DNA from: an uncultured Gammaproteobacteria bacterium
GTDB lineage: Bacteria > Pseudomonadota > Gammaproteobacteria > GCA-001735895
DNA: 64,000 bases
NCBI GenBank assembly: GCA_937894085.1
Contig: CALCSG010000217.1
Span: 2,199 to 66,198, forward strand
Reading direction: 5' to 3'
The notes beneath the pieces are model-generated. The model was not told the origin of the DNA and ran no database searches. It saw only the letters and a list, made by a program, of their open reading frames with translations. A program made the translations under genes and the position numbers. Shown one piece after another: positions 1 through 13,122 of the stretch (position 1 is the stretch's first letter; each line of letters begins with the position of its first letter).

Positions 1-571
1 CATTATCTTCTAACATTGAAATAAATTTCGTAAAATCCAAGTAACGCCAGATCTTTTGATCGCTGTTCTCTGGCGGTAATAATGCTGGATGACAAGCTTT
101 TATAAAAGCAGCTAAACCCTCCTTTCGAGCTTTTAAAGCTAATTGAAAAGCCTCTTCTTCACCATATTTATTAACAGAAAAAGCTTGGCCTTTATGCTTA
201 CCATTTCCAATAGGCCAATGTGCCTGCCATACTAAACTTTTATATCTTTTGCCTTTTTTTGTGGATGACGAGTAGCTTCTATTTACGCCAGTTGCTCCTG
301 ATACGTTTCTACGATTTGCTTTTCTTTTCCCTGAAAGTGTAAGTTCAGTGTTTGGGTTTTCGTAGTACTGGCTTTTTACTGCATCTCTGAATAATTTTGC
401 AGCCTCAAGAGAGCCATCTTTACCATCATATTTATTATCATTAAAGAAATGATGGAACTTATTTCCGTCTCGCTGAAACCTTACCCACCAACCATGCAGA
501 CCTACTTTGTGAGGCACTTTAGGTTCTTGGTCTATACGAGAAATATTTGAAAGTTCTGGACTTCTTTGCAT
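1..571 (-). CDS. AP2-domain DNA-binding protein, 5' part only (gene runs off window start); start ATG at 571-569
   Basis: Reverse-strand translation from the ATG at 569-571 gives MQRSPELSNISRIDQEPKVPHKVGLHGWWVRFQRDGNKFHHFF...GKRYKSLVWQAHWPIGNGKHKGQAFSVNKYGEEEAFQLALKARKEGL, i.e. two AP2/ERF-like repeats (W..G.F.T.EEA.AYD pattern). The frame continues open to position 1. Not in the ORF track because it is truncated. Low-GC context. Confidence 0.5.
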   Translation of the reverse strand, partial: MQRSPELSNISRIDQEPKVPHKVGLHGWWVRFQRDGNKFHHFFNDNKYDGKDGSLEAAKLFRDAVKSQYYENPNTELTLSGKRKANRRNVSGATGVNRSYSSSTKKGKRYKSLVWQAHWPIGNGKHKGQAFSVNKYGEEEAFQLALKARKEGLAAFIKACHPALLPPENSDQKIWRYLDFTKFISMLEDN

Positions 572-697
572 AGGAAATAATTACCTAGGTATAACGCCCA
601 GCATCAGAGGGAAAGCGAAGTGGAGGGAGGAACGACTGGAACTTTGCTTTTTCCGGCTGCATGCAATTGTTAGCTTTTGTTAAATATAAATACACAA

Positions 698-1567
698 TTA
701 TTTGAAAACCTTATCACCAAACATTTCATAGTCATGCATAAAAGATTCAAATTGTTTCGAATTTGAGGCTTTTTCTGGGTTATCTCTAATGTACTTTTCA
801 ATTTTTTCAGTATTAATTTCTTTTCCCAACTCATTAACATGATTAGCTTTTTCGATTATGTAATCTATGAACCCATCTGGCCACTGGTATTTTCGGGGAC
901 TTATTTTACCTGATCTTAATGCTATTCTGCTTGACCTCATCTTGTTTATGTTACTGCTTTTAATAAAGCCCAAAATGATGAATGAAGGTAATTTTGTATA
1001 AGTGAAAATGTTACTAGAATTTCCTGCAATATCCATCGAAATTGTTCTTAAGAAATACCCATTAATGTTTGATGGTAACCCCTTTCCAGTTACAGACTCT
1101 ATTCTATCAACAGGGAACAAGTGCTGTTCATATTGGAATAAGTTATCGACCTTTCCTAGTATAAATTTTGATATATGGATTTCAGCATCATCAAGTAGTT
1201 GAATGTACTCTGGTGGTTTACCAGCAATATCATTTTTACTTCTAATATAAGTTAGCGTTCTCCATGAAATAGAAGCACAGAATTTAGATAACCAATCTCC
1301 ATAATTGGCATTACTTATACCGTTATTTACAAATGGATAAAATATTTTATTAGCAAATTTTGTTTCCCATTTGGAAAATATATCCTCGCAGTCACCGCAA
1401 AGCCAAAATTCTTTTGCTAAATCTTGGGCGCGTTTATGCACCTCGTTTGATTCTCGTAAAAAACCTGTAATAGAAGTTTTTTTTGACCATTTACCAATGA
1501 ACTTGGGAATAAAGTGGCTAACCTCTAGATCTTTCTTCTTTTTACAAAGTTTACATTTTCCCTGCAT
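698..1567 (-). CDS. Hypothetical Cys-rich protein with HNH-like N-terminus (CxxC...LEVSHFIP...LCGDC)
   Basis: 289-aa ORF. N-terminal CKLCKKKKDLEVSHFIPKF...WLCGDCEDIF resembles the HNH nuclease CxxC-(DH)-CxxC zinc-finger scaffold. AT-rich codon usage unlike the rest of the window. The C-terminal ~200 aa are unrecognised. Confidence 0.45.
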   Translation of the reverse strand: MQGKCKLCKKKKDLEVSHFIPKFIGKWSKKTSITGFLRESNEVHKRAQDLAKEFWLCGDCEDIFSKWETKFANKIFYPFVNNGISNANYGDWLSKFCASISWRTLTYIRSKNDIAGKPPEYIQLLDDAEIHISKFILGKVDNLFQYEQHLFPVDRIESVTGKGLPSNINGYFLRTISMDIAGNSSNIFTYTKLPSFIILGFIKSSNINKMRSSRIALRSGKISPRKYQWPDGFIDYIIEKANHVNELGKEINTEKIEKYIRDNPEKASNSKQFESFMHDYEMFGDKVFK

Positions 1568-2096
1568 TGGTGACTTCCGTATTTAAGCTAACAGTTTATT
1601 GGAAGGAATCCTTTCTATCAGGTTCTAGAAGGCTTCCTTCTATTTCTATAATCCCTGTTTTCATTACAGGATACTAATTGCGCGCCTGGCCATATCAATC
1701 AAATAACCGGGGGCCGTTACACAAAAAATTTGACACCAGTAACGACCGCTCTCATCACTTTCCTACCTAATGCAACGCATGTAAACAATGACCGAAATTA
1801 TGGATACTCATTACTGCCGAATTGCTTTAACTGACTGGCAAAACATCTTAACTAAGTCATTGGTTCGGTTGACGATGGTATCTATGTTGCGTAGCCAGCA
1901 TTACTTTTAAAATGGATTGCATCCCTTGTTTCCGTAAACGGTGCGTCCGTGCACCACTACTCCAGCTAATAACATGCCGGTATGACGGTTTCGTGTTATT
2001 TACTGAATCATCTTGCTAATCACCCTGATTTATCAACGATATCCTGGGCAACCAATCTATCAATAACTAATCGCCATAACATCTGAAACAGATCCG

Positions 2097-2342
2097 CTAA
2101 TGATCACACTTATCCATTTTCTCTTTTGATTTGGGTAACACCGATATGAGGAAGGTCGAGATCAGGATTATCGGTGACAGTAAGAGCAGGATAAAACCGA
2201 AAAACATGATGATATGCTGCAAATTCCAGATGTGGGGCACCACATGCATGGCGACCAGTATCAGCATAATACCGGCTGTAAAGAAGATAAGCGAAGCTGC
2301 CACTCCTTCGCGCATTGTTTGACAACCTAAGGTTAATAACAT
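2097..2342 (-). CDS. Small two-TM membrane protein, last gene of the cytochrome operon
   Basis: 81-aa ORF, strongly hydrophobic (two predicted helices), 30 bp downstream of the NapC/NirT-family gene on the same strand. Confidence 0.4.
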   Translation of the reverse strand: MLLTLGCQTMREGVAASLIFFTAGIMLILVAMHVVPHIWNLQHIIMFFGFILLLLSPIILISTFLISVLPKSKEKMDKCDH

Positions 2343-2372: not shown

Positions 2373-3020
2373 TTATTCATTTTCAGCCATTAGCTTTTTC
2401 GCTGTGCCTTTTTCCAGCCCGAACTCGAGCTCGATCATTTCATTCCAGGCAGCTCTTTTGAATGTTTTTTCATGCGGAACCTTGCGGTGTACCAGGTTGT
2501 AATGACATTCGATACAGCTTTTATCTTTAGCGTCTTCCAGGTGAATTTTACGGGTATCCGGACGATCACCGTAAATCGCCTCTTTAACATGACAGCGTTT
2601 ACAGGTTGCCGAGTCTCGATCTTTAAACCATTTCCTGGCTTCAAATGCTGCTTCTGGTAAATGCAGTGCATTCATCACGGGGTCATCATAGTTAGGGCCA
2701 AAAACAGCCCCTTTCACCTGCTTGATAACATCTTTACCTCCAATGAAATGATCCCAGGTTGCCGATATCACTCCTTCAGATACGTGACAGTCTCCACAAC
2801 TCGCCTGTACACCCGAACTGGGTTTGTAATGCTTCGACTCACGGTATGGCTCGGCAACAATTCCCATGGAATGGCAGGTCGTACAAAATTCTTCACTGCT
2901 GGTGTAATGATCAAACTCAATCAGGAAAAGAATGAACACAATACCTGCTATACCTCCAACTAACAGGGCAAACAGAACATGGCGGGTTATAAATGCGGGT
3001 AAAGGTAATTTAATCTTCAT
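2373..3020 (-). CDS. NapC/NirT/NrfH-family membrane-anchored tetraheme cytochrome c (quinol dehydrogenase)
   Basis: 215 aa with an N-terminal TM helix and four CxxCH motifs (CTTCH, CGDCH, CKRCH, CIECH) at NapC/NirT-like spacing. Overlaps the upstream octaheme gene by 11 bp. Confidence 0.85.
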   Translation of the reverse strand: MKIKLPLPAFITRHVLFALLVGGIAGIVFILFLIEFDHYTSSEEFCTTCHSMGIVAEPYRESKHYKPSSGVQASCGDCHVSEGVISATWDHFIGGKDVIKQVKGAVFGPNYDDPVMNALHLPEAAFEARKWFKDRDSATCKRCHVKEAIYGDRPDTRKIHLEDAKDKSCIECHYNLVHRKVPHEKTFKRAAWNEMIELEFGLEKGTAKKLMAENE

Positions 3021-4464
3021 TGCCTTTTCCCTGCCCGAAACCCAGTATAGGATTCGCTTTTTGCGGATGATTTAACCAGTCATGATGCTCTGAACCATTG
3101 ATATGCTTTTTGATCAGCGCATCACCTTTCTCTTTTCCAGCAACTTCACGTATCTGGGCTAGAAATTTTCCGTAAAAATCACTGCCCAGATCACTCATGC
3201 CTTTCCAGGTTGAACTGGGACTGCCCATCGCGGCACCATGCCTGGCCAGCGTTCCATGTGTATGCCACAGATTCCAGTAGGTGACTTCTAATGGTTCATC
3301 GAAAGGAAGAGGGGTCAACAGGCCTGCAGAATATAGATCCTGCATGATTGCCTGTGCAGGCTTGCCATATTTTTCATTATAAAGCTCGACCACATTATCA
3401 AATTGTGACATGGCATTTTCGCTAAACCCCTTACTGTGGCATTCCAGACAGGTTTTTGTCATCGCACCTCTGCGACGTTTAGGCGATGCAACAGCCTTAA
3501 CCTTGCCCATACTACCATCCATTTTTGAAATGCTTTCGCCACGTCCCGGTAAAGGCTCGGAGGTTGATAGTTCGCGTTTATCACCATCTTCAAAAATTAT
3601 TAAATATTGCTGTTCTGACACAGCTGAATTCAGGTTCCACGAGTCACGCATTCCAACATCGTGAGTGGATTTCATTTTTCCTGCAGCGCCCATATGACAG
3701 GTAACACAGGTAGGTGCAGCCGAATAATCCTGTCCTGCTACCCATTGATCACTGTCCATATTCATGTCTTTTTTATGTGCTTCATACATCATGCCATGCT
3801 TTGAAGTTTCATAAACTTCCTTATCGGGTGAATCGGGGCCGGAGTGACAATAAATACAGGCCTGTGGTTCACGCGCCTGTGCTTTGGAAAATGTATGCCG
3901 GCCATGACAGGCAGAACAGGAACCGACAGATCCATCAGGGTTAATTCGTCCAATACCTGAATTAGGCCAGGTGGATGGATCGAGTGAACCGTCACCACGT
4001 ACTTTAACTTCAGATCCATGGCACTTTGCACAACCCGCATCATTGATCGAAGGACTGCCAAAATGTTGAGAAAGTGCAGGCATACGGTTTTTAATAATTG
4101 ATAGAGCTTTGGTATGCACAGAACCTTTCTGTTGTTTTAATTCAGTTTCATGACAACGCCCGCAATCTTTGGGTGACACGATGGTAGCAATAATACTGCC
4201 TTCATGTTCGATAGCATCGATGTCTTCTTCATAAGCCTGATGACAATCCAGACAGTTAACATTAGCTGCCGCATGTGCACTGTTTTTCCATTGATGGGTT
4301 AATCCTGCCGAGGACCTGGCATGACAATCTACACAGGCTTTTCCTTCTTCACTACCCCAGGTACTGGAGTCCAGTGTTACTTTATCAGCCACAGCAGACG
4401 CCGAGAATAACAGGATAAATATGACTGTAAAAGCTGATAAAGGGGTCTGTGTAAAAGGCTTCAC
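3010..4464 (-). CDS. Octaheme c-type cytochrome, hydroxylamine-oxidoreductase (HAO) family-like, periplasmic
   Basis: 484 aa with a signal peptide and eight CxxCH motifs (CVDCH, CLDCH, CGRCH, CAKCH, CSACH, CIYCH, CVTCH, CLECH). No CxxCK. Coupled to a NapC/NirT (CycB-like) gene, as seen for HAO-family octahemes. Confidence 0.65.
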   Translation of the reverse strand: MKPFTQTPLSAFTVIFILLFSASAVADKVTLDSSTWGSEEGKACVDCHARSSAGLTHQWKNSAHAAANVNCLDCHQAYEEDIDAIEHEGSIIATIVSPKDCGRCHETELKQQKGSVHTKALSIIKNRMPALSQHFGSPSINDAGCAKCHGSEVKVRGDGSLDPSTWPNSGIGRINPDGSVGSCSACHGRHTFSKAQAREPQACIYCHSGPDSPDKEVYETSKHGMMYEAHKKDMNMDSDQWVAGQDYSAAPTCVTCHMGAAGKMKSTHDVGMRDSWNLNSAVSEQQYLIIFEDGDKRELSTSEPLPGRGESISKMDGSMGKVKAVASPKRRRGAMTKTCLECHSKGFSENAMSQFDNVVELYNEKYGKPAQAIMQDLYSAGLLTPLPFDEPLEVTYWNLWHTHGTLARHGAAMGSPSSTWKGMSDLGSDFYGKFLAQIREVAGKEKGDALIKKHINGSEHHDWLNHPQKANPILGFGQGKGNED

Positions 4465-4489: not shown

Positions 4490-4525
4490 TAGTTATATTA
4501 AAACAGCCCCATTTAAGGGGCTAAA
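4490..4525 (-). terminator. Hairpin (agcccc-atttaa-ggggct), terminator/attenuator-like between cytochrome b and the HAO-like gene
   Basis: 6-bp GC stem at 4505-4510/4517-4522, followed on the minus strand by GTTTTAAT. Sits in the 92-bp gap between two minus-strand genes. Confidence 0.3.
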
Positions 4526-4556: not shown

Positions 4557-5156
4557 TTATTCTTTCTCAAAACCGAAAATCATTGCTTTGAGGTATCCAA
4601 GAAATTCATCACTGGTGGTCAAAGCCAGATACAGATGAACGATAAGAAATGCTAACAACATAAAAGCCATTGCGGTATGAATCAGCGCAATCACTAACAG
4701 GCTAACATCCCCAAGACCAATCATTGGCCAGTAAGGATAAAAAAAGTAGAGCAGACCACTTAGTACCGCAAATGGAAGCATAAAGATATGCAATGACAGG
4801 TATGCCATGCGCTGCATGGGATTTAGCTTTGAGCGTCTGGTTTTATGGTGAGGATGTTCACTACCACCAATAAATATATCCACCCCGTAATACTTCACCA
4901 TCGCTAACAATTTATTCATATTGGCAGGAATATATTGCTTCCACTCGCCGGTAACCATGTGCCAGAAAATACCCAGAAACCAGATGGCTATCAAAGACCA
5001 GGCAGCTACGATGTGAATATCAACCGCTTTTTCAAAGCCAAAAAAATCAAAAGTATCATGAATCTCAAAACCAGTTACCAGTAAGGTAATTACCAGTAAC
5101 CCCTGAGACCAGTGCCAGATCCGCTCGAAGCGGGTATACATCATGACTTCTTTCAT
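4557..5156 (-). CDS. Dihaem cytochrome b membrane subunit (Ni/Fe-hydrogenase-type cytochrome b / PhsC/CybB family)
   Basis: 199 aa with four TM helices. N-terminal RFERIWHWSQ motif and conserved His positions typical of PF01292-type cytochrome b. Start overlaps the upstream octaheme gene stop (ATGA). Confidence 0.8.
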   Translation of the reverse strand: MKEVMMYTRFERIWHWSQGLLVITLLVTGFEIHDTFDFFGFEKAVDIHIVAAWSLIAIWFLGIFWHMVTGEWKQYIPANMNKLLAMVKYYGVDIFIGGSEHPHHKTRRSKLNPMQRMAYLSLHIFMLPFAVLSGLLYFFYPYWPMIGLGDVSLLVIALIHTAMAFMLLAFLIVHLYLALTTSDEFLGYLKAMIFGFEKE

Positions 5157-6781
5157 TGTTTCTTCCTCCGTCTGGAAAATAACACTCGAACCAGACCATG
5201 CAGGCCGACCCCACCAAAAGTTCCTGCTACTGCCAGCCAGCCGATAGTGTCGAGGATGCTATTGTTATCGCGTCCCGGCATATAAAAATCTGTCAACTTA
5301 TCCAGTCTGCCGCCTTTGCTGTGGCAATCTGCACAACTTAAGGTCTGATCCTTGGGGGCAACCATATGCGCCAATGGCATGTGCATGGTGGTTTCAATGA
5401 AACCATATTCACCACTATAGTCTGCTCCCGCTTCTTTCATGGCCTCACTGATAGCACTGTCCCAGTCGTAAGATTTCCAGTAGGCAGCCTTATCCTTACC
5501 AAACAGATGGATCAGTGCCAGAGTGTTATTACCCTTGTCATAAGGTTGTTTACCGCGCATTACCTTAAAAGGCCAGATACGTGCATTCGGGTCGTCATAG
5601 GATCCGGAAAAATTATTTAACTCGACCACTTCTTGCGGATTGATTTTTTCATCCAGTTGCTTGAAATGAACATTACCGGATAACCAGGCATATTCCGGCT
5701 CAACATTTTCAGCCCATTTAAAATTTCCTTTTTTAGTGACATAGGTGACATAACCATGCTCATCTTTCATGGTGATTTCTTTTCCATCCGCATCTTTTTT
5801 ACCTGCAGTTGTCCAGTCCCACCATAATTTTGAAGGTACACCGCCTCGTGCATAAGCAGGTATGTGACAGGTCGTACAGGCTACTTTATCGGTATGATCA
5901 TTGATTTTATTATTCAAAGTCGATTTGTGTGGCGTCATCCCATGACATGACTCACAGGTAGCTCGACTATTATCATCACGTCCGGGCACATCGATACCGT
6001 GTGTATCTTTGGCAACCGGGTTATAACGACTACCTTTAACATCATGTCCATCAGTAGTATGACATTCACTACATCCAAAATTCAGGCCATCCACACCCAT
6101 GTGAACATCCAGCTCTTTTTTCGGATTGGTCATCGATGAGTCCAGATCACCGTGTTTGACTCCATCTCCGCCGCCGCCATAAAAGTGGCAGACACCGCAA
6201 TTCTCTCGACGTGTTTTACCTACCTTTTGCGCGACATCGCTTAAATCAGCCACTTTCCAGACTTTCTTACTGCCTTTCGGAAAAATCTTCTCCTTGTAGT
6301 TTGGATGACCGGCATCGGTTGGAAATTTCTTGTAGGTATCGGTAGTGTCGTGACAAACCAGACAGTCAACTTTATCTTCTGCAGTAAAATCGAAGCTGTC
6401 ATCTTTCCAGCCATAACCAATATGACAACTTGTGCAGCGTGGTTGATTACTGGTAATGGATAAACAGAAATTATTTATTACGCTTTTTTTACCGACTTCT
6501 TCACCAGTATCGGGATTGGTAAACGTCCAGTTCCAGTGCTTGGTTTTATGTAACTGTTTACTGGCCTCGGTATGACAACTGAGACAGGCTTTAGTGACTT
6601 CAGGACCTGTTTTAAAAGGTTTTTGAAGTTCTTCGAATTTACTGTGATCAGCGGTTGAAGTAGATTTTTTGGTAGTTGCACTTTCCTGCATAGCCAGACT
6701 TACACTGGCAAAACTGCTCAGATAAAGACACAGCGATATCAGAAAAGCAGATGTTTTATAACTGCTATTACGGGAAATCAT
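5153..6781 (-). CDS. Octaheme c-type cytochrome, OTR (octaheme tetrathionate reductase)-like, with C-terminal TM anchor
   Basis: 542 aa with a signal peptide and eight CxxCH motifs (CLSCH, CTSCH, CLVCH, CGVCH, CSECH, CESCH, CTTCH, CADCH). Hydrophobic C-terminal helix followed by RRRKKQ. Translationally coupled to the cytochrome b gene. Confidence 0.6.
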   Translation of the reverse strand: MISRNSSYKTSAFLISLCLYLSSFASVSLAMQESATTKKSTSTADHSKFEELQKPFKTGPEVTKACLSCHTEASKQLHKTKHWNWTFTNPDTGEEVGKKSVINNFCLSITSNQPRCTSCHIGYGWKDDSFDFTAEDKVDCLVCHDTTDTYKKFPTDAGHPNYKEKIFPKGSKKVWKVADLSDVAQKVGKTRRENCGVCHFYGGGGDGVKHGDLDSSMTNPKKELDVHMGVDGLNFGCSECHTTDGHDVKGSRYNPVAKDTHGIDVPGRDDNSRATCESCHGMTPHKSTLNNKINDHTDKVACTTCHIPAYARGGVPSKLWWDWTTAGKKDADGKEITMKDEHGYVTYVTKKGNFKWAENVEPEYAWLSGNVHFKQLDEKINPQEVVELNNFSGSYDDPNARIWPFKVMRGKQPYDKGNNTLALIHLFGKDKAAYWKSYDWDSAISEAMKEAGADYSGEYGFIETTMHMPLAHMVAPKDQTLSCADCHSKGGRLDKLTDFYMPGRDNNSILDTIGWLAVAGTFGGVGLHGLVRVLFSRRRKKQ

Positions 6782-6866: not shown

Positions 6867-8156
6867 TTACAAGGAGTTTTCAGCCGAAGCAATCATCTTC
6901 GGAGCAGTTACATCTGTGGGGAGTTTAGTAAACTTTTTAACCAGACCAGGCCATAGCAGGTTGTAATATAACTCTGCACGAACCAGCTCTACACCTTTAG
7001 CAGGTATCGAGTATTCCAGGTCACGTTTTTCAAATGCTTTCAATCGAGTATCTGCACCCTGACCTTTTGCAGTTGGTGGACCTGTTGGCTTTCCATCACC
7101 ATCAACTAGAGTCAAAAACATAAATGCTTGTTTATCTTCTTTAGCGGGGTGGCCTTTAGCATTTTGCCAAACTACATTTCCGCTCTTATCATAAGCTGAA
7201 ATCTTTACATAGATATTTCTAAAGGGAGCGCCTGTAGGCATGGTATGTGGCTGTTTATTCTTAATCGTAACAGTCGACATTATGTTACCGCCATTCTTCT
7301 TACTGTCCATACTGAATAGTACTGAACGCTGTAACATACCCAAATCATGTCCACCGCCCATACTGTGATCGGCTACAGCATCATTAGTCGGCATGTGGCA
7401 TGACAGGCAATCAACCTGTGCATTACTGGCAATGTATTCATCACCCGTTGCACATAGAGGAACACCGTGAGAATTATTGCGCTTATCATGACAACCCATG
7501 CAAGCATCTGAACTTCTCAACTGCGTTGGGTTACTTTCCATAGGCATCGCCTGAATGGTCTTACCATCAATGGTTACCGCCTCGCCCAGATGTGGGTTCG
7601 GTTTTTGATCTGCTTCTCCACCACCAAAACCAAATGCATCACCGGCTGATGCCAGTTTCTGTAATTTAGTATTAGAATGGCGACCGGATCCCTGCAGCAC
7701 GTCAGAAACTTCATATGCCATCATACCGAGCTGCATTTTTCCATTTGCGGCGGTAGTACCTTTAAATTTTTTCAATGTATGACAGGCTACGCAGTTGACG
7801 CCTTCAGCATAGGCAGGTGTCGCGTCAAGTTTGGTCTTTTTATCTTTGGCGGCATTCGGGGCATGGCACTGTATACAAACTGGAAATTTGCCTGCTTTTG
7901 TTTTTACACCCTCCTGACCAGGATCACCAACAACGTTTCTATAAAATGTTCCATGAATGGGATCGTTGAACGCGGTACTGTTCGCATGCATCGAACCTTT
8001 CCATTGTTTATAGATTTCTTTATGGCAGGTTTTACAGGTTTCAGATGAGACCTGGTGAATTGATTTGTCAGCAAACACATTTGTAGCTGAGACTAAACTT
8101 AAACCACAAAATACAATTGCTGAAAATAACATCGAAGTTTTTGTCTTGTTGCGCAT
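6867..8156 (-). CDS. Pentaheme c-type cytochrome with a ~150-aa haem-free C-terminal domain
   Basis: 429 aa with a signal peptide and five CxxCH motifs (CKTCH, CIQCH, CVACH, CMGCH, CLSCH). First gene of the minus-strand cytochrome cluster, with a 494-bp AT-rich upstream region. Confidence 0.7.
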   Translation of the reverse strand: MRNKTKTSMLFSAIVFCGLSLVSATNVFADKSIHQVSSETCKTCHKEIYKQWKGSMHANSTAFNDPIHGTFYRNVVGDPGQEGVKTKAGKFPVCIQCHAPNAAKDKKTKLDATPAYAEGVNCVACHTLKKFKGTTAANGKMQLGMMAYEVSDVLQGSGRHSNTKLQKLASAGDAFGFGGGEADQKPNPHLGEAVTIDGKTIQAMPMESNPTQLRSSDACMGCHDKRNNSHGVPLCATGDEYIASNAQVDCLSCHMPTNDAVADHSMGGGHDLGMLQRSVLFSMDSKKNGGNIMSTVTIKNKQPHTMPTGAPFRNIYVKISAYDKSGNVVWQNAKGHPAKEDKQAFMFLTLVDGDGKPTGPPTAKGQGADTRLKAFEKRDLEYSIPAKGVELVRAELYYNLLWPGLVKKFTKLPTDVTAPKMIASAENSL

Positions 8157-8650: not shown

Positions 8651-11542
8651 TTATATTTGAGCTAAAAGTAGTTTTTTCATTTCAGCAGAGGGCACTGCCG
8701 GACTAAACAAATATCCCTGCATCTGATCACAGCCCTCAGCAAGCAATAGCTCAAATTGCTGAGGAGTTTCCACACCTTCGGCGATCAGATGCAGGTTCAT
8801 GCTTTTACCTAAGGCTATAATAGCCCGGGTAATTGCCAGATCCTCCTGGTCGCCGGGTAGATCACGCACAAATTCACGATCAATTTTCAATTTATCTACC
8901 GGAAACCGCTTTAGATAACTGAGCGATGAATAACCTGTCCCAAAGTCATCAATGGCTAAATCGACTCCCAAAGATTTTAATGCATTGAGTGTATGAATCG
9001 CCTGCTCGGCATTTTCCATTAACATGCTTTCGGTTATTTCCAGCTCAAGATAACCAGCATCAAGCCCGGATATCTGCAATATCTGCTGCACTTGCGAAAC
9101 AATATCAGCTTGAGTGAGCTGACGTGCTGATAAATTGACTGACATTTTTAGCGCAGGTAACCCGGCCCGCTGCCACTCAACGGCCTGACGACAGGCCTCG
9201 AACAGTACCCACTTTCCTATCGGTTCTATCAACCCGCTTTCTTCTGCGAAGGGAATAAACTGGTTTGGAGATACCAGACCTGTTTGCGGATGCTCCCAGC
9301 GTATCAGAGCTTCCATGCCAACTATCTGGTTAGAACTTAATTCGATCTGAGGTTGATAATAAAGACGAAATTCTTCACGATTTAACGCATGCCGCAAATC
9401 AACCTGAAGCTTTTGACGCTCTTTGGCGATGGCTGTCAGAGTATCAGAAAAGTACTGAAATCCATTGCGCCCCAGGTCTTTAGCCCGATACATAGCAGCA
9501 TCCGCATTTTTAATCAGGGTGTCGACATTTTCGCCCTGCTCAGGATAAATCGAGATACCGATACTACTGGAAACAAAAAGCTCATGACCGTCAATAGCAA
9601 ACGGCTTTCTGAATCTTTCCAGTATCTTCTCTGCGACCAGAGCGGCATCCTGTGGTTGATCAATCTGCTCAACCAGAATTAAAAACTCATCGCCACCCTG
9701 ACGTGCAACGGTATCACCCTGACGCACAATTTCCTTTAAAATCGTTGACGCACTCTGTAATAATTTATCGCCTACCGCATGCCCAAGAGAGTCATTGACC
9801 TCCTTAAAATTATCCAGATCTATGAACAATAAAGCCATATTCACTTTGCTTCGACTGGCTCGATGAATGGCATGTTCCAGGCGTAACTGAAATAACATGC
9901 GATTCGGTAAATTCGTCAGCGGATCGTGATGTGATAAATATTCAAGTCGCTGCTGGGTTTCTTTAATTGCACTTATATCACCGAAAACACCTACATAATT
10001 TGTCAGCTTACCGGTTTCATCTTTGAGTGTATTTATAGTCAGCCACTCCGGGTAAAGCTCACCTGATTTGCGCCTATTCCAGATTTCTCCCTGCCAATAA
10101 CCTTTTGCCTTAATAGATGACCACATTTCTATAAAGAAAGGGTTTTTATGTTGCCCGGAATGCAGGAATGAGGGATTCCTGCCGATGACTTCCTGTTCGC
10201 TATAACCAGTAATTTCTGTAAATGCCGGGTTGACACTGACAATATTGACATCAGCATCGGCAATAATCACACCTTCCACGGTTGACTCTACAATCTTGGC
10301 CGCCAGTAACTGCTGCTTTTCAGCCTGCTTTCGGCGCGAAATATTCCTGATGACACCTGAAATAGCCAAAGGTATACCATCATCATCCGCAATGGCTCGA
10401 GAGATAGCCTCTACGTCAACAAAATCACTATTGATACTATTTAGTTTAAACTCTGCAACGCAGTGCTCCTCCCTGGCGATAGCCTGGTCGGAAAATAGCT
10501 TCACACAACGATCATGATCTACAGGGTCAACAAATTCACTCCAGTGACGGGCCAGGGAAGACTCAACTGAATTTCCCGTAAGCTTTTCCCATGCGGGACT
10601 GAGAAACTCCCAGCAGCCATTAATATCGATACGAAAAAGCACATCTTCCATATTATTAATGACGGTTCTATAGGCTTCTCTACTTTCTTTTAATTCAGTT
10701 TCCCGTTTACCGATATTTTCCGCCATAGAATTAAATGCGAGACTTACCTGGTCCATATCCTGATCGGCTTCTCTATTCAGACGTACAGAGTAATCACCAT
10801 TTGAAAGCCTGACGGTGGCCGCATTCATACTTTTCATTCGCTTCAGAAGAATTCGATTCAACATCCAGGATGCGATAATTAAACTGACAAGAAAAATTAA
10901 TGTCTTAAGGATCAGCTCTTTTTTCAGCTCGGACAATAACCTGTCCTGGAAAAGTTGAGCGGGCAATTTTATACTTAAAATTCCCCGTAAATCATCAAGT
11001 TTATAACCATAGGCGGTATCATAATTTTCACTGATACTGGCCGGCGCATTTTTTTGTTCTCCATGGCAGACAAGACATTGGGTAACTATGCGCAGAGGTG
11101 CTGAAAAGTGATAAGCCTGTTCCCCGGTGGGTTTAATAAAAGGTACAAACCTGTCTGTCGCCTGTGGGTTCTGTCTGAAATAATTCATTGCCTCCAGTTC
11201 CACACTATCGGCCTGATTCTGAGGGTTTCTGGGTCTGTCCGAAACACTGTTAAACCATATACCATCATCAGTTAATAAATTATATTCTTTTGCGATTCTA
11301 CTAATTGAGTGAGCCGGCAAAAAACGGATAGTTTTATCATTAACGGAAATATTTTCTTCGATGAATACCCGTTGATAAACTCGCCGCATGGAAACCAGAA
11401 CACCCTGTAATATTTTTGATTCCCGGTAGATGCCGGCTTTAACGGATTCGACACTGAGTAGATAGCCACGATATTCCACCAGCCCAAATGCCAGTAACAT
11501 AATACCGCTTATTGCAAAAAGTGTTTTTGTCTGGAGATTCAT
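8651..11542 (-). CDS. Signalling protein: periplasmic haem-c sensor domain (CxxCH, DUF3365/Tll0287-like) - TM - HAMP - 2xPAS - GGDEF - EAL
   Basis: 963 aa. N-terminal TM, then a periplasmic domain with CLVCHGEQ, then a second TM plus HAMP. PAS domains, GGDEF (RQGGDEFLIL) and EAL (EALIRW...DDFGTGYSS) motifs are intact. Confidence 0.85.
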   Translation of the reverse strand: MNLQTKTLFAISGIMLLAFGLVEYRGYLLSVESVKAGIYRESKILQGVLVSMRRVYQRVFIEENISVNDKTIRFLPAHSISRIAKEYNLLTDDGIWFNSVSDRPRNPQNQADSVELEAMNYFRQNPQATDRFVPFIKPTGEQAYHFSAPLRIVTQCLVCHGEQKNAPASISENYDTAYGYKLDDLRGILSIKLPAQLFQDRLLSELKKELILKTLIFLVSLIIASWMLNRILLKRMKSMNAATVRLSNGDYSVRLNREADQDMDQVSLAFNSMAENIGKRETELKESREAYRTVINNMEDVLFRIDINGCWEFLSPAWEKLTGNSVESSLARHWSEFVDPVDHDRCVKLFSDQAIAREEHCVAEFKLNSINSDFVDVEAISRAIADDDGIPLAISGVIRNISRRKQAEKQQLLAAKIVESTVEGVIIADADVNIVSVNPAFTEITGYSEQEVIGRNPSFLHSGQHKNPFFIEMWSSIKAKGYWQGEIWNRRKSGELYPEWLTINTLKDETGKLTNYVGVFGDISAIKETQQRLEYLSHHDPLTNLPNRMLFQLRLEHAIHRASRSKVNMALLFIDLDNFKEVNDSLGHAVGDKLLQSASTILKEIVRQGDTVARQGGDEFLILVEQIDQPQDAALVAEKILERFRKPFAIDGHELFVSSSIGISIYPEQGENVDTLIKNADAAMYRAKDLGRNGFQYFSDTLTAIAKERQKLQVDLRHALNREEFRLYYQPQIELSSNQIVGMEALIRWEHPQTGLVSPNQFIPFAEESGLIEPIGKWVLFEACRQAVEWQRAGLPALKMSVNLSARQLTQADIVSQVQQILQISGLDAGYLELEITESMLMENAEQAIHTLNALKSLGVDLAIDDFGTGYSSLSYLKRFPVDKLKIDREFVRDLPGDQEDLAITRAIIALGKSMNLHLIAEGVETPQQFELLLAEGCDQMQGYLFSPAVPSAEMKKLLLAQI

Positions 11543-11685: not shown

Positions 11686-13122
11686 TTATTTAATAATTGC
11701 TGCAAACTCTTTAACCAGTGCATCAGCAGTAATACCATTAGCAAATTTAGTCACAAAGCTGCCATCCGGGGCCATTAAATAAAGGCTGGCTGTATGGTCC
11801 ATGGTATAAAGGCTCGAATCTGATTTATCTCTCGGGCCTTTTTCATACTTAACCCTGAACTGATCGGCAACCCGTTTTATCATCTGTTCAGAACCGGTAA
11901 GCCCAATCAGGCGTTGATCAAAGTAACTGACATAATTTCGTAACAGTTTTACCGTATCCCGTTCAGGATCAACAGAAATGAAATAAGGTTGAACCTGCTC
12001 TGCCAGTACACCCATCTGTTGCAGTGCCTGAGTCAATACCGTTAAACTGGTTGGACACACATCAGGGCAGGAAGTATAACCAAAAAACACCAGTGAATAT
12101 TTTCCCTTCATATCCTGTTCAGTCACAGTTTGTCCAAGATGATTGGTCAGAAAGAAACGCCCTCCCAACCCATCAATGACGGGACTATCGTCACCATAGG
12201 CCGCCATCCTTGCTTTTGCGGCAGCATCCAGATTAGCATTCAGACATCGCTTGATGACATCTGTATTGTATTCCATCAATTTAAGATAAAGTTCCGGCCC
12301 CGCTTGCAGATCAAGCCCCAGAGTATCCAGTTCACCAATATTTATACTCTGCCCTGCGGTTAACAACTGAAGATTTTTCGCTGGCATACTCTTGTCTATA
12401 AACAAACATGCAGCTTCATGACTGGTTATTCTTGTCCTGACTTTAAGCAAGTCTGTAACCCTTTCTACATCCCACGGAGAACCAGAAACTCGATCCAGTG
12501 TTTGCAGCGCATAGGCCTGCTCAAAATAATTCAGGTTGTCATAATACGAAACGCCGAGACCGGCTTTTAATCCTCGATATCCATATTCGTATTCTTTATC
12601 AATACGACGTAACGGATCCAGCATGGCCATTCGATTTCTAATATAAATATGGGAGCGGGCAGGGTCCAGCTGGACCAGCGCTTCGGTCAACTCATCTAAC
12701 ATGATGATTGCATTACGGTCATCCATCCAGAAAAAGGGATCTCGAAAATCGGGATTCTGTCGTGACGGTAAAATTTTCAGATCGGGGCTGGACAGTAACT
12801 CGATAACTTTGACCGTTTCTGGTAACTGGCTCACTGTTGACTGCAAGGTTTTTTCCAGTTCCTGGCCTACCCAGATAAATAAGCTGGATTCAGCAAGCTG
12901 CTGTTGCTGAGTTTCGCTTAACTCAAAGTTATAGGGTGTGTTTTTTCCATCAATTAACAGCAGGGGCTCGCCTATATCCTGCATCAGGCCGGAGACTATA
13001 GAATGCACCGGTTTAATACTGGTCACCACCCTGAATTTATTTGCTGACCAGGCAGGCAGACTGGTAACCATCAACCCACAACTAACGAGCAGGATAAATA
13101 GCGGAAGAATTTTTTTTATCAT
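11686..13122 (-). CDS. Fusion protein: ZnuA/TroA-like periplasmic metal-binding-fold domain + SCO1/SenC copper chaperone (thioredoxin-like, CxxxCP)
   Basis: 478 aa. The N-terminal half aligns to the ZnuA architecture (VVTSIKPVHSIV...LFIWVGQELE). The C-terminal half carries the SCO1/SenC signature GKYSLVFFGYTSCPDVCP. Signal peptide present. Confidence 0.7.
   Translation of the reverse strand: MIKKILPLFILLVSCGLMVTSLPAWSANKFRVVTSIKPVHSIVSGLMQDIGEPLLLIDGKNTPYNFELSETQQQQLAESSLFIWVGQELEKTLQSTVSQLPETVKVIELLSSPDLKILPSRQNPDFRDPFFWMDDRNAIIMLDELTEALVQLDPARSHIYIRNRMAMLDPLRRIDKEYEYGYRGLKAGLGVSYYDNLNYFEQAYALQTLDRVSGSPWDVERVTDLLKVRTRITSHEAACLFIDKSMPAKNLQLLTAGQSINIGELDTLGLDLQAGPELYLKLMEYNTDVIKRCLNANLDAAAKARMAAYGDDSPVIDGLGGRFFLTNHLGQTVTEQDMKGKYSLVFFGYTSCPDVCPTSLTVLTQALQQMGVLAEQVQPYFISVDPERDTVKLLRNYVSYFDQRLIGLTGSEQMIKRVADQFRVKYEKGPRDKSDSSLYTMDHTASLYLMAPDGSFVTKFANGITADALVKEFAAIIK

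What the first reader, a model, noticed from the sequence alone, without database searches (positions are those of the whole stretch)
2373..4464. HAO-family-like octaheme directly fused in operon (11-bp overlap) with a NapC/NirT quinol dehydrogenase
Eight canonical CxxCH and no CxxCK argues against NrfA/ONR and for the HAO lineage. The CycB-like partner mirrors the haoA-cycB logic of nitrifiers and the epsilon-Hao systems that work reductively (nitrite to ammonium). Which direction this enzyme runs in this organism is open. A trailing 81-aa two-TM ORF may be an uncharacterised subunit.
Basis: partly seen in the sequence, partly recalled or inferred. Interest (0 to 1): 0.6.

Follow-up and report, generated by a model that had tools for sequence, protein, structure and literature searches.

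The report
Cross-link-free HAO-like octahaem with NapC partner
A sulfur-oxidiser genome encodes an eight-haem enzyme of the hydroxylamine-oxidoreductase superfamily wired to the membrane quinone pool, built to run as a reductase, but with a rebuilt catalytic pocket that leaves its real substrate unknown.

Summary
A 484-aa ORF (3010-4464, minus) has eight CxxCH and no CxxCK or CX15CH. It overlaps by 11 bp a 215-aa NapC/NirT-family tetrahaem gene (2373-3020). A conserved 81-aa two-TM gene follows.

The octahaem belongs to the HAO superfamily. Its closest solved relative is the Ignicoccus octahaem IhOCC (4QO5), not nitrifier HAO. The cross-linking Tyr467 is absent, so reductive operation from quinol via the NapC-like protein is the best reading (a "reverse HURM").

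- The gene belongs to a clade found in sulfur-oxidising Gammaproteobacteria. That clade always carries the NapC partner (35/35 loci) and nearly always a pentahaem cytochrome (34/35), an orthologue of Thermochromatium tepidum low-potential c552 (5ZE8).
- Only five positions separate this clade from a NapC-less paralogue. One is the distal catalytic His (His to Ser); another lies in the loop that carries the cross-link Tyr in HAO.
- An OTR-cytochrome b pair sits alongside in about a quarter of loci.

The substrate is unproven. Hydroxylamine or NO seems more likely than nitrite, and a sulfur-linked role is not excluded. This is a new variant of a known kind, of moderate interest.

The parts
3010..4464 (-). 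HAO-superfamily (IhOCC-like) octahaem cytochrome c, 484 aa, with a Sec-type signal peptide (…SASAVA/DKV)
   Evidence: Eight CxxCH. PF13447 4.5e-25. PDB best hit 4QO5 at 2e-42, profile 3.4e-51; HAO, HOX and HDH at 1e-16 to 1e-24. Foldseek top 10 are all HAO family.
4018..4032 (-). Fourth haem motif CAKCH (residues 145-149), the presumed catalytic five-coordinate haem by homology with HAO and IhOCC
   Evidence: Invariant in 102 homologues. The position of the catalytic haem in the C-terminal module is taken from PMC9250108.
3823..3834 (-). Residues 211-214 (D-S-P-D) directly after haem-6 CIYCH; the position of the Asp267-His268 distal pair of NeHAO, here Asp-Ser
   Evidence: Ungapped alignment to NeHAO CHSGVDHNN. 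S212, P213 and D214 are invariant. S212/H and D214/Q are two of only five clade A versus clade B discriminating positions.
3196..3240 (-). Loop HGAAMGSPSSTWKGM (residues 409-423), homologous to the NeHAO loop GLAHVNPGGWTY(467)TEGW; it contains no Tyr
   Evidence: Tyr467 was located as Y491 of the precursor chain 6m0p_A. MAFFT and hhalign both place it on a gap between T419 and W420; it is Trp in most clade members.
2373..3020 (-). NapC/NirT-family membrane-anchored tetrahaem cytochrome c (quinol dehydrogenase type), 215 aa
   Evidence: PF03264 2e-33. NrfH 2J7A_C 2.3e-6. Four CxxCH, the first as CxxCHxM (a motif I recall from NrfH), and an N-terminal helix. Present downstream of the octahaem gene in 35/35 clade A loci.
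2097..2342 (-). 81-aa two-TM protein with a conserved N-terminal Cys and a C-terminal C-x-H
   Evidence: tblastn 46-79% identity next to HAO-NapC in related loci. jackhmmer finds 38 family members in 25 fetched loci, 22 of them among the 39 clade A loci. No Pfam family.
6867..8156 (-). Pentahaem cytochrome c with a C-terminal Ig-like domain; orthologue of T. tepidum low-potential cytochrome c552 (LPC)
   Evidence: 5ZE8_A E=4.5e-161 over residues 31-427. Five CxxCH plus free invariant Cys235. Adjacent to the octahaem gene in 34/35 clade A loci.
5153..6781 (-). Octahaem tetrathionate reductase (OTR) family cytochrome, 542 aa; an optional neighbour
   Evidence: TIGR04315 643 bits against a cut-off of 375. 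PF11783. Within the flank in 10/39 clade A loci.
4557..5156 (-). Cytochrome b (PF01292, PhsC-like), overlapping the OTR stop codon by 4 bp
   Evidence: PF01292 3.1e-21. NF011582 thiosulfate reductase cytochrome b 2.4e-25, below cut-off.
4504..4523 (-). Terminator-like hairpin plus T-run between the cytochrome b gene and the octahaem gene
   Evidence: sequence read. It suggests that OTR-cytochrome b and HAO-NapC-TM81 are separable transcription units.

Best explanation
The locus encodes a quinol-linked periplasmic multihaem reductase module of the 'reverse HURM' type.

Proposed mechanism:
- The membrane-anchored NapC/NirT-family tetrahaem (215 aa) oxidises quinol.
- It passes electrons to a secreted octahaem of the HAO superfamily, IhOCC-like branch. 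The conserved low-potential pentahaem c552 (LPC orthologue) may act as intermediary or partner.
- The octahaem lacks the Tyr-haem cross-link that makes the P460 cofactor, so it works reductively at its five-coordinate fourth haem.

Shown: family membership, absence of the Tyr, the Asp-Ser replacement of the distal Asp-His pair, obligate gene linkage with NapC and LPC, and restriction of the clade to sulfur-oxidising Gammaproteobacteria.

Inferred: electron flow from quinol, the reductive direction, and the substrate. I commit to a small N-O species. Because the pocket has lost His and Arg and gained Asp, neutral or cationic hydroxylamine or NO (detoxification or ammonium formation) is more likely than anionic nitrite. 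The 81-aa Cys...CxH membrane protein is an accessory of unknown role.
For: HAO-superfamily membership: PF13447; PDB phmmer and profile hits only to IhOCC, HAO, HOX, HDH and Kustc0458; Foldseek top 10 all from the same family; three long C-terminal helices at pLDDT about 90.

Cross-link Tyr: Tyr467 located in NeHAO and absent here in two independent alignments. Cross-link-free HAOs are reductases in every tested case (PMC8042395; epsilon-Hao as cited there). Kustc0458, a proven reductase, also has Trp at that position.

Partner: NapC/NirT family membership and NrfH homology, an 11-bp overlap, and a NapC-like gene downstream in 35/35 clade A loci. The HaoA plus CycB/NapC quinol-oxidase concept is set out in PMC3701875.

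Pocket: clade A and clade B differ at only five conserved positions, namely S212/H, D214/Q, N279/R, M352/Y and S415/G. S212 is the position of His268, which PMC3814345 lists as functional.

Localisation: signal peptide and lack of other TM segments.
Against: No biochemical or expression data exist for any member of this clade. The substrate inference rests on charge arguments from sequence alone.

Loss of the distal His might mean a non-N substrate or no catalysis at all. Neighbouring genes outside the cytochrome cluster are unrelated housekeeping genes, with no nap, nir, nor or hcp.

To my knowledge many hosts, such as the phototrophic Chromatiaceae Thiocapsa and Halochromatium, are not nitrate respirers. 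The conserved partners (an LPC related to a polysulfide reductase, and OTR) point towards sulfur chemistry.

The mapping of N279 to NeHAO Tyr334 is ambiguous: MAFFT says yes, hhalign places it three residues away.
Confidence: 0.5

Rival explanations
1. Respiratory or assimilatory nitrite-to-ammonium reductase, functionally equivalent to epsilon-Hao/HaoB or NrfAH. Quinol is oxidised by the NapC-like protein and nitrite is reduced by six electrons at haem 4.
For: This is the known activity of the closest characterised relatives: IhOCC is described as an octahaem nitrite reductase in PMC9250108, and epsilon-Hao reduces nitrite and hydroxylamine (PMC8042395). The gene logic matches the reverse HURM (PMC3701875). 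The Tyr is absent.
Against: The distal His is Ser and the clade B Arg is Asn, both invariant, and an extra Asp is gained. That gives a pocket poorer in the basic residues used for binding an anion and delivering protons. The His/Arg-bearing paralogue (clade B) coexists in the same genomes (L027/L055, L043/L058, L012/L061) and sits next to a two-component regulatory pair that I read as NarXL-like in Thiocystis, so it is the better nitrite-reductase candidate. No nap or nir genes lie nearby.
Confidence: 0.2
2. A sulfur-compound oxidoreductase module specific to sulfur oxidisers. The remodelled octahaem, together with the His/Cys-type pentahaem LPC, and often alongside OTR-cytochrome b, links a periplasmic sulfur species (polysulfide, sulfite, thiosulfate or tetrathionate) to the quinone pool.
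For: The clade is found in Chromatiaceae, Sedimenticola, Thiodiazotropha, Thiolapillus and tubeworm or clam symbionts.

The obligate partner is an orthologue of T. tepidum LPC. LPC has the pentahaem plus Ig-like domain build of the polysulfide reductase MccSep and is shown as a structural comparator in that preprint; here it gives a weak N-terminal sequence hit to MccSep, and it has an invariant free Cys235 close to the position number of the haem-ligating C239 (bioRxiv 10.1101/2025.11.18.688581).

An OTR-family gene with a PhsC-like cytochrome b is adjacent. Ignicoccus hospitalis, which I recall to be an obligate sulfur reducer, carries the same trio of HAO-like octahaems, OTR-like protein and membrane tetrahaem (PMC4429474).
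Against: No HAO-family enzyme is known to act on sulfur compounds. A more acidic pocket disfavours sulfur oxyanions and polysulfide. The LPC loop has Ala where MccSep has its catalytic Sec. OTR is present in only 10/39 loci.
Confidence: 0.2
3. A non-catalytic electron relay or store: a 17-haem periplasmic wire (4 + 8 + 5 haems) that connects the quinone pool to another enzyme or buffers electrons.
For: A relay role was proposed for the Ignicoccus octahaems (PMC4429474). Loss of a catalytic residue is compatible with loss of catalysis. To my recollection LPC is an abundant soluble cytochrome with no assigned function.
Against: The pocket residues are replaced by other invariant residues rather than drifting. 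The fourth haem motif and its surroundings are strictly conserved. A dedicated quinol dehydrogenase is typical of terminal reductase systems.
Confidence: 0.07
4. A forward HURM: oxidation of hydroxylamine or hydrazine, with electrons delivered through c554-like and cM552-like cytochromes to quinone, as in nitrifiers.
For: The gene set superficially copies haoA, cycA and cycB: the octahaem, a cytochrome with a PF13435 c554-type region, and a NapC/cM552-family tetrahaem. JGI pipelines label some homologues 'hydroxylamine dehydrogenase'.
Against: Tyr467 is absent and His268 is absent. No amo or related genes are in the window. To my knowledge the hosts are sulfur oxidisers rather than nitrifiers. 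Cross-link-free HAOs show negligible oxidative activity (PMC8042395).
Confidence: 0.03

Closest known systems
IhOCC, octahaem cytochrome c of Ignicoccus hospitalis (PDB 4QO5)
   Same: Best solved relative by sequence (2e-42; profile 3.4e-51) and by fold search (3e-12). Eight CxxCH. No Tyr cross-link (PMC9250108). The distal His is also missing (CHLDPDVP against CHSGPDSPD). Its host also has an OTR-like protein and a membrane tetrahaem (PMC4429474).
   Different: Identity is about 25-40% and only over parts of the protein. It is archaeal and, as I recall, membrane-associated, whereas the protein here has a cleavable-looking signal peptide. Here the residue is Ser, not Val. The protein here has a longer C-terminal extension (about 50 aa beyond the IhOCC end). 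No adjacent NapC gene is documented for IhOCC in what I could read.
Epsilon-Hao with NapC/NrfH-type CycB ('reverse HURM') of Nautilia and Campylobacter
   Same: A cross-link-free HAO homologue coupled to a NapC/NrfH/cM552-family tetrahaem as a quinol oxidase (PMC3701875). Reductive activity has been shown in vitro (cited in PMC8042395).
   Different: In N. profundicola the two genes are unlinked (NAMH_1280 and NAMH_0559), whereas here they overlap. Nearly all other family representatives sampled keep Asp-His; whether epsilon-Hao does was not checked, since no epsilon-Hao sequence was obtained.
Kustc0458/Kustc0457 reductive HAO (HAOr) of Kuenenia (PDB 6H5L)
   Same: An HAO-family member without the Tyr, with Trp at that position. 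A proven reductase, nitrite to NO (PMC8042395).
   Different: It belongs to the type-I (HAO/HDH) half of the family, at about 24% identity. It keeps Asp-His (CHMGPDHPD). Its partner is a soluble dihaem, not a NapC-type protein.
Nitrosomonas europaea HAO with c554 and cM552 (forward HURM)
   Same: Same superfamily and haem order. The gene trio of octahaem, a cytochrome with a c554-type Pfam region, and a NapC/cM552-family tetrahaem is analogous.
   Different: About 23% identity to the AOB-type HAO representative P0127. Tyr467 and His268 are absent here. The hosts are not nitrifiers.
NrfA-NrfH cytochrome c nitrite reductase complex
   Same: A NapC/NirT/NrfH-type quinol dehydrogenase delivering electrons to a periplasmic multihaem reductase. 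NrfH is the only solved homologue of the 215-aa protein.
   Different: NrfA is pentahaem with a CxxCK catalytic motif and a His/Arg/Tyr pocket. There is no CxxCK here, and NrfA hits are insignificant.
Low-potential pentahaem cytochrome c552 of Thermochromatium tepidum (PDB 5ZE8); relative of the MccSep polysulfide reductase
   Same: The neighbouring 429-aa gene is its orthologue (E=4.5e-161). It has five haems and keeps the PLC(A/Q)TG Cys and the PTGAPFRN loop.
   Different: This match concerns the partner, not the octahaem. The function of LPC is unknown. Ala replaces the Sec of MccSep.

Membership tests
HAO superfamily (PF13447; 'clade 1' HAO/HDH/IhOCC of PMC9250108) | Eight CxxCH haem motifs with a profile match above the curated threshold | tested here: met
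   Eight CxxCH. PF13447 88.9 bits against a cut-off of 21.9.
HAO superfamily (PF13447; 'clade 1' HAO/HDH/IhOCC of PMC9250108) | The closest solved structures are HAO-family members; three long C-terminal helices | tested here: met
   phmmer and hmmsearch hit 4QO5, 6T5E, 6H5L, 4N4J, 1FGJ and 6HIF. Foldseek top 10 are the same set, though TM-scores are only about 0.3 because the haem domain is poorly packed. Helices 345-379, 391-412 and 416-442 at pLDDT 86-97.
Oxidative HAO/HDH (P460 enzymes) | Cross-linking tyrosine (NeHAO Tyr467) | tested here: not met
   Y491 of the precursor lies in GLAHVNPGGWTYTEGW. It aligns to a gap between T419 and W420, and to Trp in most clade members.
Oxidative HAO/HDH (P460 enzymes) | Distal Asp267-His268 pair after haem 6 | tested here: not met
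   CHSGPDSPD against CHSGVDHNN. Ser212 is invariant in 102 homologues.
Reductive HAO-type enzymes (epsilon-Hao, HAOr, IhOCC) | HAO fold without the cross-linking Tyr | tested here: met
Reductive HAO-type enzymes (epsilon-Hao, HAOr, IhOCC) | Demonstrated reduction of nitrite, hydroxylamine or NO | not testable with these tools
   Needs enzyme assays.
Epsilon-Hao lineage specifically | Phylogenetic grouping with the Campylobacter and Nautilia Hao | not tested
   No epsilon-Hao sequence could be obtained. Cluster names did not identify any.
Reverse HURM / NrfAH-like quinol:reductase module | A dedicated NapC/NirT/NrfH-family membrane tetrahaem encoded with the catalytic subunit | tested here: met
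   PF03264 2e-33, four CxxCH, N-terminal helix, 11-bp overlap. Present in 35/35 loci.
NrfA / ONR | CxxCK catalytic haem motif (Lys ligand) | tested here: not met
   No CxxCK. PF02335 17.2 bits is below its cut-off of 24.1.
MccA | CX15CH or CX17CH haem motif | tested here: not met
   None in the 484-aa protein. No MccA hit.
OTR | TIGR04315 / PF11783 match | tested here: not met
   No hit for the 484-aa protein. The neighbouring 542-aa protein is the OTR (643 bits).
NapC, TorC, NrfH equivalogs (for the 215-aa protein) | Score above the NCBIfam equivalog cut-off | tested here: not met
   TorC 94.6 against 478; NapC/NirT 78.9 against 310.6; NrfH 46.2 against 134.2. It is a superfamily member only.
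LPC (T. tepidum pentahaem c552), for the 429-aa neighbour | Full-length high-scoring match, five CxxCH, Ig-like C-terminal domain | tested here: met
   5ZE8_A E=4.5e-161 over 31-427. Five CxxCH. The Ig-like domain was not separately modelled.

The most novel reading that the evidence does not exclude
Clade A is a functionally new branch of the HAO/IhOCC superfamily confined to sulfur-oxidising Gammaproteobacteria. Its catalytic pocket was rebuilt (His to Ser, Arg to Asn, Gln to Asp, plus changes in the cross-link loop). It became obligately tied to a NapC-type quinol dehydrogenase, to the hitherto function-less low-potential pentahaem c552, and to a small Cys...CxH membrane protein. Together they would catalyse a reaction not yet known for octahaem cytochromes, for example quinol-dependent reduction of a neutral species such as hydroxylamine, NO or peroxide, or a sulfur-linked redox step. 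This would at last assign a role to LPC.
Probability: 0.3. Interest if true: 0.75.

Novelty: new variant of a known kind. Interest (0 to 1): 0.5.

Why it matters
Genes of this clade are labelled 'hydroxylamine dehydrogenase' or plain 'multiheme cytochrome' by annotation pipelines. At least 586 species genomes carry relatives of this protein (clades A and B and more distant ones), and the 39 clade A loci come from chemosynthetic animal symbionts and phototrophic sulfur bacteria. Reading them as nitrification markers would be wrong, because the cross-link Tyr is missing. Reading them as ordinary nitrite ammonifiers may also be wrong, because the distal His is missing.

If the module is a hydroxylamine or NO reductase, or a sulfur-linked enzyme, it would change how nitrogen and sulfur budgets of symbioses and sulfidic sediments are inferred from genomes. 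It would give a function to T. tepidum LPC. The paralogue pair differs at only five conserved positions, which offers a clean natural experiment on what tunes substrate choice in octahaem enzymes.

Tried and rejected
- A 97-aa NeHAO fragment used as query for the search for homologous proteins returned only short fragments. I recovered from this by using fragment P0121 for the representative search and by reading the NeHAO sequence out of a PDB alignment.
- The first AlphaFold model (22 sequences) had pLDDT 57, and its Foldseek search gave meaningless hits. The second model (102 sequences) was usable for family recognition only, with TM about 0.3.
- Coordinates cannot be inspected, so I could not measure whether S212, D214, N279, M352 and S415 line the haem-4 pocket.
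- The mapping of NeHAO Tyr334 is unresolved: MAFFT gives N279, hhalign gives V282.
- I tried to find epsilon-Hao among the 50%-cluster representatives through source names, without success.
The active-site description of IhOCC and the gene context of epsilon-Hao and LPC therefore rest on secondary citations or memory.
- The orange Beggiatoa octahaem (BOGUAY_0691) could not be placed; its primer-derived termini do not match the Parabeggiatoa homologue L082.
- The T. tepidum LPC locus could not be retrieved: the top 120 LPC homologues contain no Thermochromatium entry.
- The rest of the window was searched for N- or S-cycle genes and none was found.
- MccA, OTR, NrfA and decahaem membership of the 484-aa protein was considered and rejected.
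Full report
**1. What is in the sequence**

On the minus strand there is a row of six genes:
- a 429-aa cytochrome (6867-8156);
- a 542-aa cytochrome (5153-6781);
- a 199-aa membrane protein (4557-5156, overlapping the previous stop by 4 bp);
- the 484-aa ORF of the finding (3010-4464);
- the 215-aa ORF of the finding (2373-3020);
- an 81-aa ORF (2097-2342).

The 484-aa protein has eight CxxCH motifs, no CxxCK, and no CX15CH or CX17CH. All 16 of its cysteines lie in haem motifs. Shuffles of the same protein give 0.024 motifs on average. It starts at a GTG preceded by GGAG, and homologues are 484-488 aa and align from residue 1. It has a signal-peptide-like N-terminus ending in AVA/DKV and no other hydrophobic segment.

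The 215-aa protein has four CxxCH and an N-terminal helix. Its ATG lies 11 bases before the stop codon of the octahaem gene, with a purine-rich stretch just upstream.

**2. Family of the octahaem**

Pfam gives PF13447 (the HAO-type multihaem family) at 4.5e-25, well above threshold. NCBIfam gives only a sub-threshold hydrazine dehydrogenase hit.

Against all PDB sequences the best match by far is 4QO5, the Ignicoccus hospitalis octahaem IhOCC (2e-42; 3.4e-51 with a family profile). It is followed by Brocadia and Kuenenia HOX, Kustc0458, N. europaea HAO and HDH (1e-16 to 1e-24). NrfA and ONR are marginal.

A first AlphaFold model was too poor to use. A second, built from 102 homologues (pLDDT 72.7), shows three long, confident C-terminal helices. 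Its ten significant Foldseek hits are exactly these HAO-family structures, with 4QO5 first, although TM-scores are low because the haem domain cannot pack without haems.

The evolutionary study PMC9250108 places HAO/HDH and IhOCC together as 'clade 1'. This protein belongs there, on the IhOCC side. Against one representative per 50% cluster, it shares 30-46% identity with IhOCC-like representatives and 22-28% with HAO/HDH-like ones.

**3. The tyrosine test**

I recovered the N. europaea HAO precursor sequence from a PDB alignment. The cross-linking Tyr467 (Y491 in the precursor) lies in GLAHVNPGGWTYTEGW.

In a MAFFT alignment of 65 family members, and in an independent profile-profile alignment (hhalign, probability 100), this residue falls on a one-residue gap in the query loop HGAAMGSPSST-WKGM. 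In most close relatives it falls on Trp (SPNHTWWEGM). Kustc0458, the experimentally proven reductive HAO, also has Trp there. There is no Tyr in the loop.

By the rule stated in PMC8042395 and PMC3701875, that absence of the Tyr marks reductases, the enzyme is predicted to run reductively.

**4. The pocket is not that of a standard reductive HAO**

Directly after haem 6, NeHAO reads CHSGVDHNN. This is the Asp267-His268 pair, listed as functional in PMC3814345. Nearly all 60 family representatives keep D-H.

The query reads CHSGPDSPD, with Ser212, Pro213 and Asp214 invariant in 102 homologues. IhOCC has D-V.

**5. Two paralogous clades**

A scan of one genome per species found at least 586 genomes with relatives. 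The best 80 loci fall into two groups:
- Clade A (52-85% identity by tblastn): Thiodiazotropha, Sedimenticola, Thiolapillus, tubeworm and clam symbionts, and cultured Chromatiaceae such as Thiocapsa roseopersicina DSM 217, Halochromatium, Lamprobacter and Rhabdochromatium.
- Clade B (42-48% identity): broader taxonomy.

Several genomes carry both clades (L027/L055, L043/L058, L012/L061, L018/L077).

Comparing 37 clade A with 43 clade B sequences, 96 positions are conserved and identical in both clades. Only five are conserved in each clade but different between them: S212/H, D214/Q, N279/R, M352/Y and S415/G.
- The first two lie in the Asp-His motif.
- S415 lies in the loop that carries the cross-link Tyr in HAO.
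- N279 lies three residues after a conserved Trp. That is where MAFFT places NeHAO Tyr334, although hhalign shifts it by three residues.

So the divergence between the paralogues is concentrated in elements that form the catalytic pocket in solved relatives. The pocket of clade A has lost two basic residues and gained an acidic one. Whether all five residues really line the pocket could not be measured.

**6. Gene linkage**

Among the 39 clade A loci:
- A NapC-like gene lies directly downstream in 35 of 35 loci with enough flank, overlapping by 8-11 bp in several.
- A homologue of the 429-aa cytochrome is adjacent in 34 of 35, either co-directional or divergent.
- The OTR-cytochrome b pair is present in 10 of 39.

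Clade B loci have no NapC-like neighbour; some have a dihaem ORF about 0.7-1 kb downstream. In Thiocystis violacea the clade B gene lies next to genes that look like flavocytochrome c (fccAB) and a NarXL-like two-component pair; I assigned these by reading the translations, not by a family search. Outside the cytochrome cluster the neighbours are unrelated housekeeping genes.

**7. The partners**

*The 215-aa protein.* It is a NapC/NirT superfamily member (PF03264, 2e-33) that reaches none of the NapC, TorC or NrfH equivalog thresholds. Its only solved homologue is the quinol dehydrogenase NrfH. Its first haem motif is CxxCHxM, a motif I recall from NrfH.

*The 429-aa protein.* It is an orthologue of the low-potential pentahaem cytochrome c552 of Thermochromatium tepidum (5ZE8, E=4.5e-161), a protein described as of unknown function (bioRxiv 10.1101/2023.11.21.568154). 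It has the pentahaem plus Ig-like domain build of the Geobacter polysulfide reductase MccSep and gives a weak N-terminal sequence hit to it. In MccSep, Cys239 ligates a haem and Sec325 is catalytic (bioRxiv 10.1101/2025.11.18.688581). Here a free Cys235 is invariant in 34 of 34 homologues, while the loop PH(S/T)(L/M)PTGAPFRN carries Ala where MccSep has Sec.

*The 542-aa protein.* It is a bona fide OTR-family octahaem (TIGR04315, 643 bits). The 199-aa protein is a PhsC-like cytochrome b. A terminator-like hairpin separates them from the octahaem gene.

*The 81-aa protein.* It belongs to a family of small two-TM proteins with a conserved N-terminal Cys and a C-terminal C-x-H. The family is found next to the HAO-NapC pair in at least 22 clade A loci, as a co-directional type and a convergent type. 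It matches no Pfam family.

**8. How it most likely works**

*Shown:* an HAO-superfamily octahaem without the cross-link Tyr, secreted, and encoded in an overlapping reading frame with a NapC-type membrane tetrahaem.

*Inferred:* quinol is oxidised by the tetrahaem, and electrons reach haem 4 of the octahaem, possibly through LPC, where a substrate is reduced. This is the reverse-HURM logic proposed for Nautilia (PMC3701875) and the NrfAH logic.

The substrate is the open point. The relatives reduce nitrite, hydroxylamine and NO in vitro. The Ser/Asn/Asp pocket, the coexisting His/Arg-bearing paralogue, and hosts that to my knowledge are not nitrate respirers make nitrite ammonification less likely for clade A. 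I favour a neutral or cationic N species such as hydroxylamine or NO.

The restriction to sulfur oxidisers, the LPC and OTR company, and the parallel with Ignicoccus keep a sulfur-linked function alive. Ignicoccus, which I recall to be an obligate sulfur reducer, has two HAO-like octahaems, an OTR-like protein and a membrane tetrahaem (PMC4429474).

**9. Comparison, novelty and verdict**

The kind is known: cross-link-free HAO homologues with NapC-type partners. Related genes sit in hundreds of public genomes under generic names.

What I could not find described in the papers I was able to search is this particular clade with its altered distal pair, its obligate NapC and LPC partners, and its small membrane protein. 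I therefore rate it a new variant of a known kind with moderate interest (0.5).

Noticed in passing
window 6867-8156 (-): The 429-aa pentahaem cytochrome is an orthologue of the T. tepidum low-potential cytochrome c552 (5ZE8, E=4.5e-161). It has an invariant free Cys235 (a possible His/Cys haem ligand, as C239 is in MccSep) and an invariant loop PTGAPFRN with Ala at the Sec position of MccSep.
   Followed up: yes
window 4557-6781 (-): An OTR-family octahaem (TIGR04315, 643 bits) with a hydrophobic C-terminal tail ending in RRRKKQ, overlapping by 4 bp a PhsC-like cytochrome b gene. This looks like a second, parallel quinol-to-octahaem module beside the HAO-NapC one. In the 85%-identical relative L005 the OTR gene is largely deleted.
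   Followed up: partly
window 2097-2342 (-); L005-L086: A family of small two-TM proteins with an N-terminal Cys (LGCxTMREGV or CxxMRxAV) and a C-terminal C-x-H. One to three copies lie next to HAO-NapC, some co-directional and some convergent. The window has only the co-directional type.
   Followed up: partly
window 1-2097: GC content falls to 36%, and synteny with the relative L005 ends exactly at the stop codon of the 81-aa gene (2097). The 289-aa ORF (698-1567) has no family match. In contigs of the same organism it is followed by an AP2-domain gene and a HEPN AbiV gene (L001, L004), which suggests an inserted mobile or defence islet.
   Followed up: partly
window 8651-11542 (-): A 963-aa signalling protein immediately upstream of the cytochrome cluster: a Tll0287-like domain with one CxxCH, then HAMP, PAS, GGDEF and EAL. 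It may be a redox-sensing c-di-GMP regulator. It is absent at this position in L005.
   Followed up: no
L060 3446-10392 (Thiocystis violacea DSM 208): The clade B paralogue (CHVGPDHPQ, 501 aa) lies between divergently transcribed genes that look like flavocytochrome c sulfide dehydrogenase (fccAB) and a LuxR-type response regulator plus a NarX-like sensor kinase. These identities come from reading the translations, not from a family search.
   Followed up: no
L046, L049, L054, L059, L061, L069: Several clade B loci have a roughly 195-237-aa dihaem ORF 0.7-1 kb downstream, reminiscent of the dihaem partner Kustc0457 of the Kuenenia reductive HAO.
   Followed up: no
window 11686-13122 (-): A 478-aa protein that fuses a ZnuA-type periplasmic metal-binding domain with an SCO1/SenC copper-chaperone domain.
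   Followed up: no
L008, L033: Clade A loci sit in MAGs labelled Bathyarchaeota and Bdellovibrio bacteriovorus at 84% and 58% identity to the query. These are probably mis-binned gammaproteobacterial contigs.
   Followed up: no
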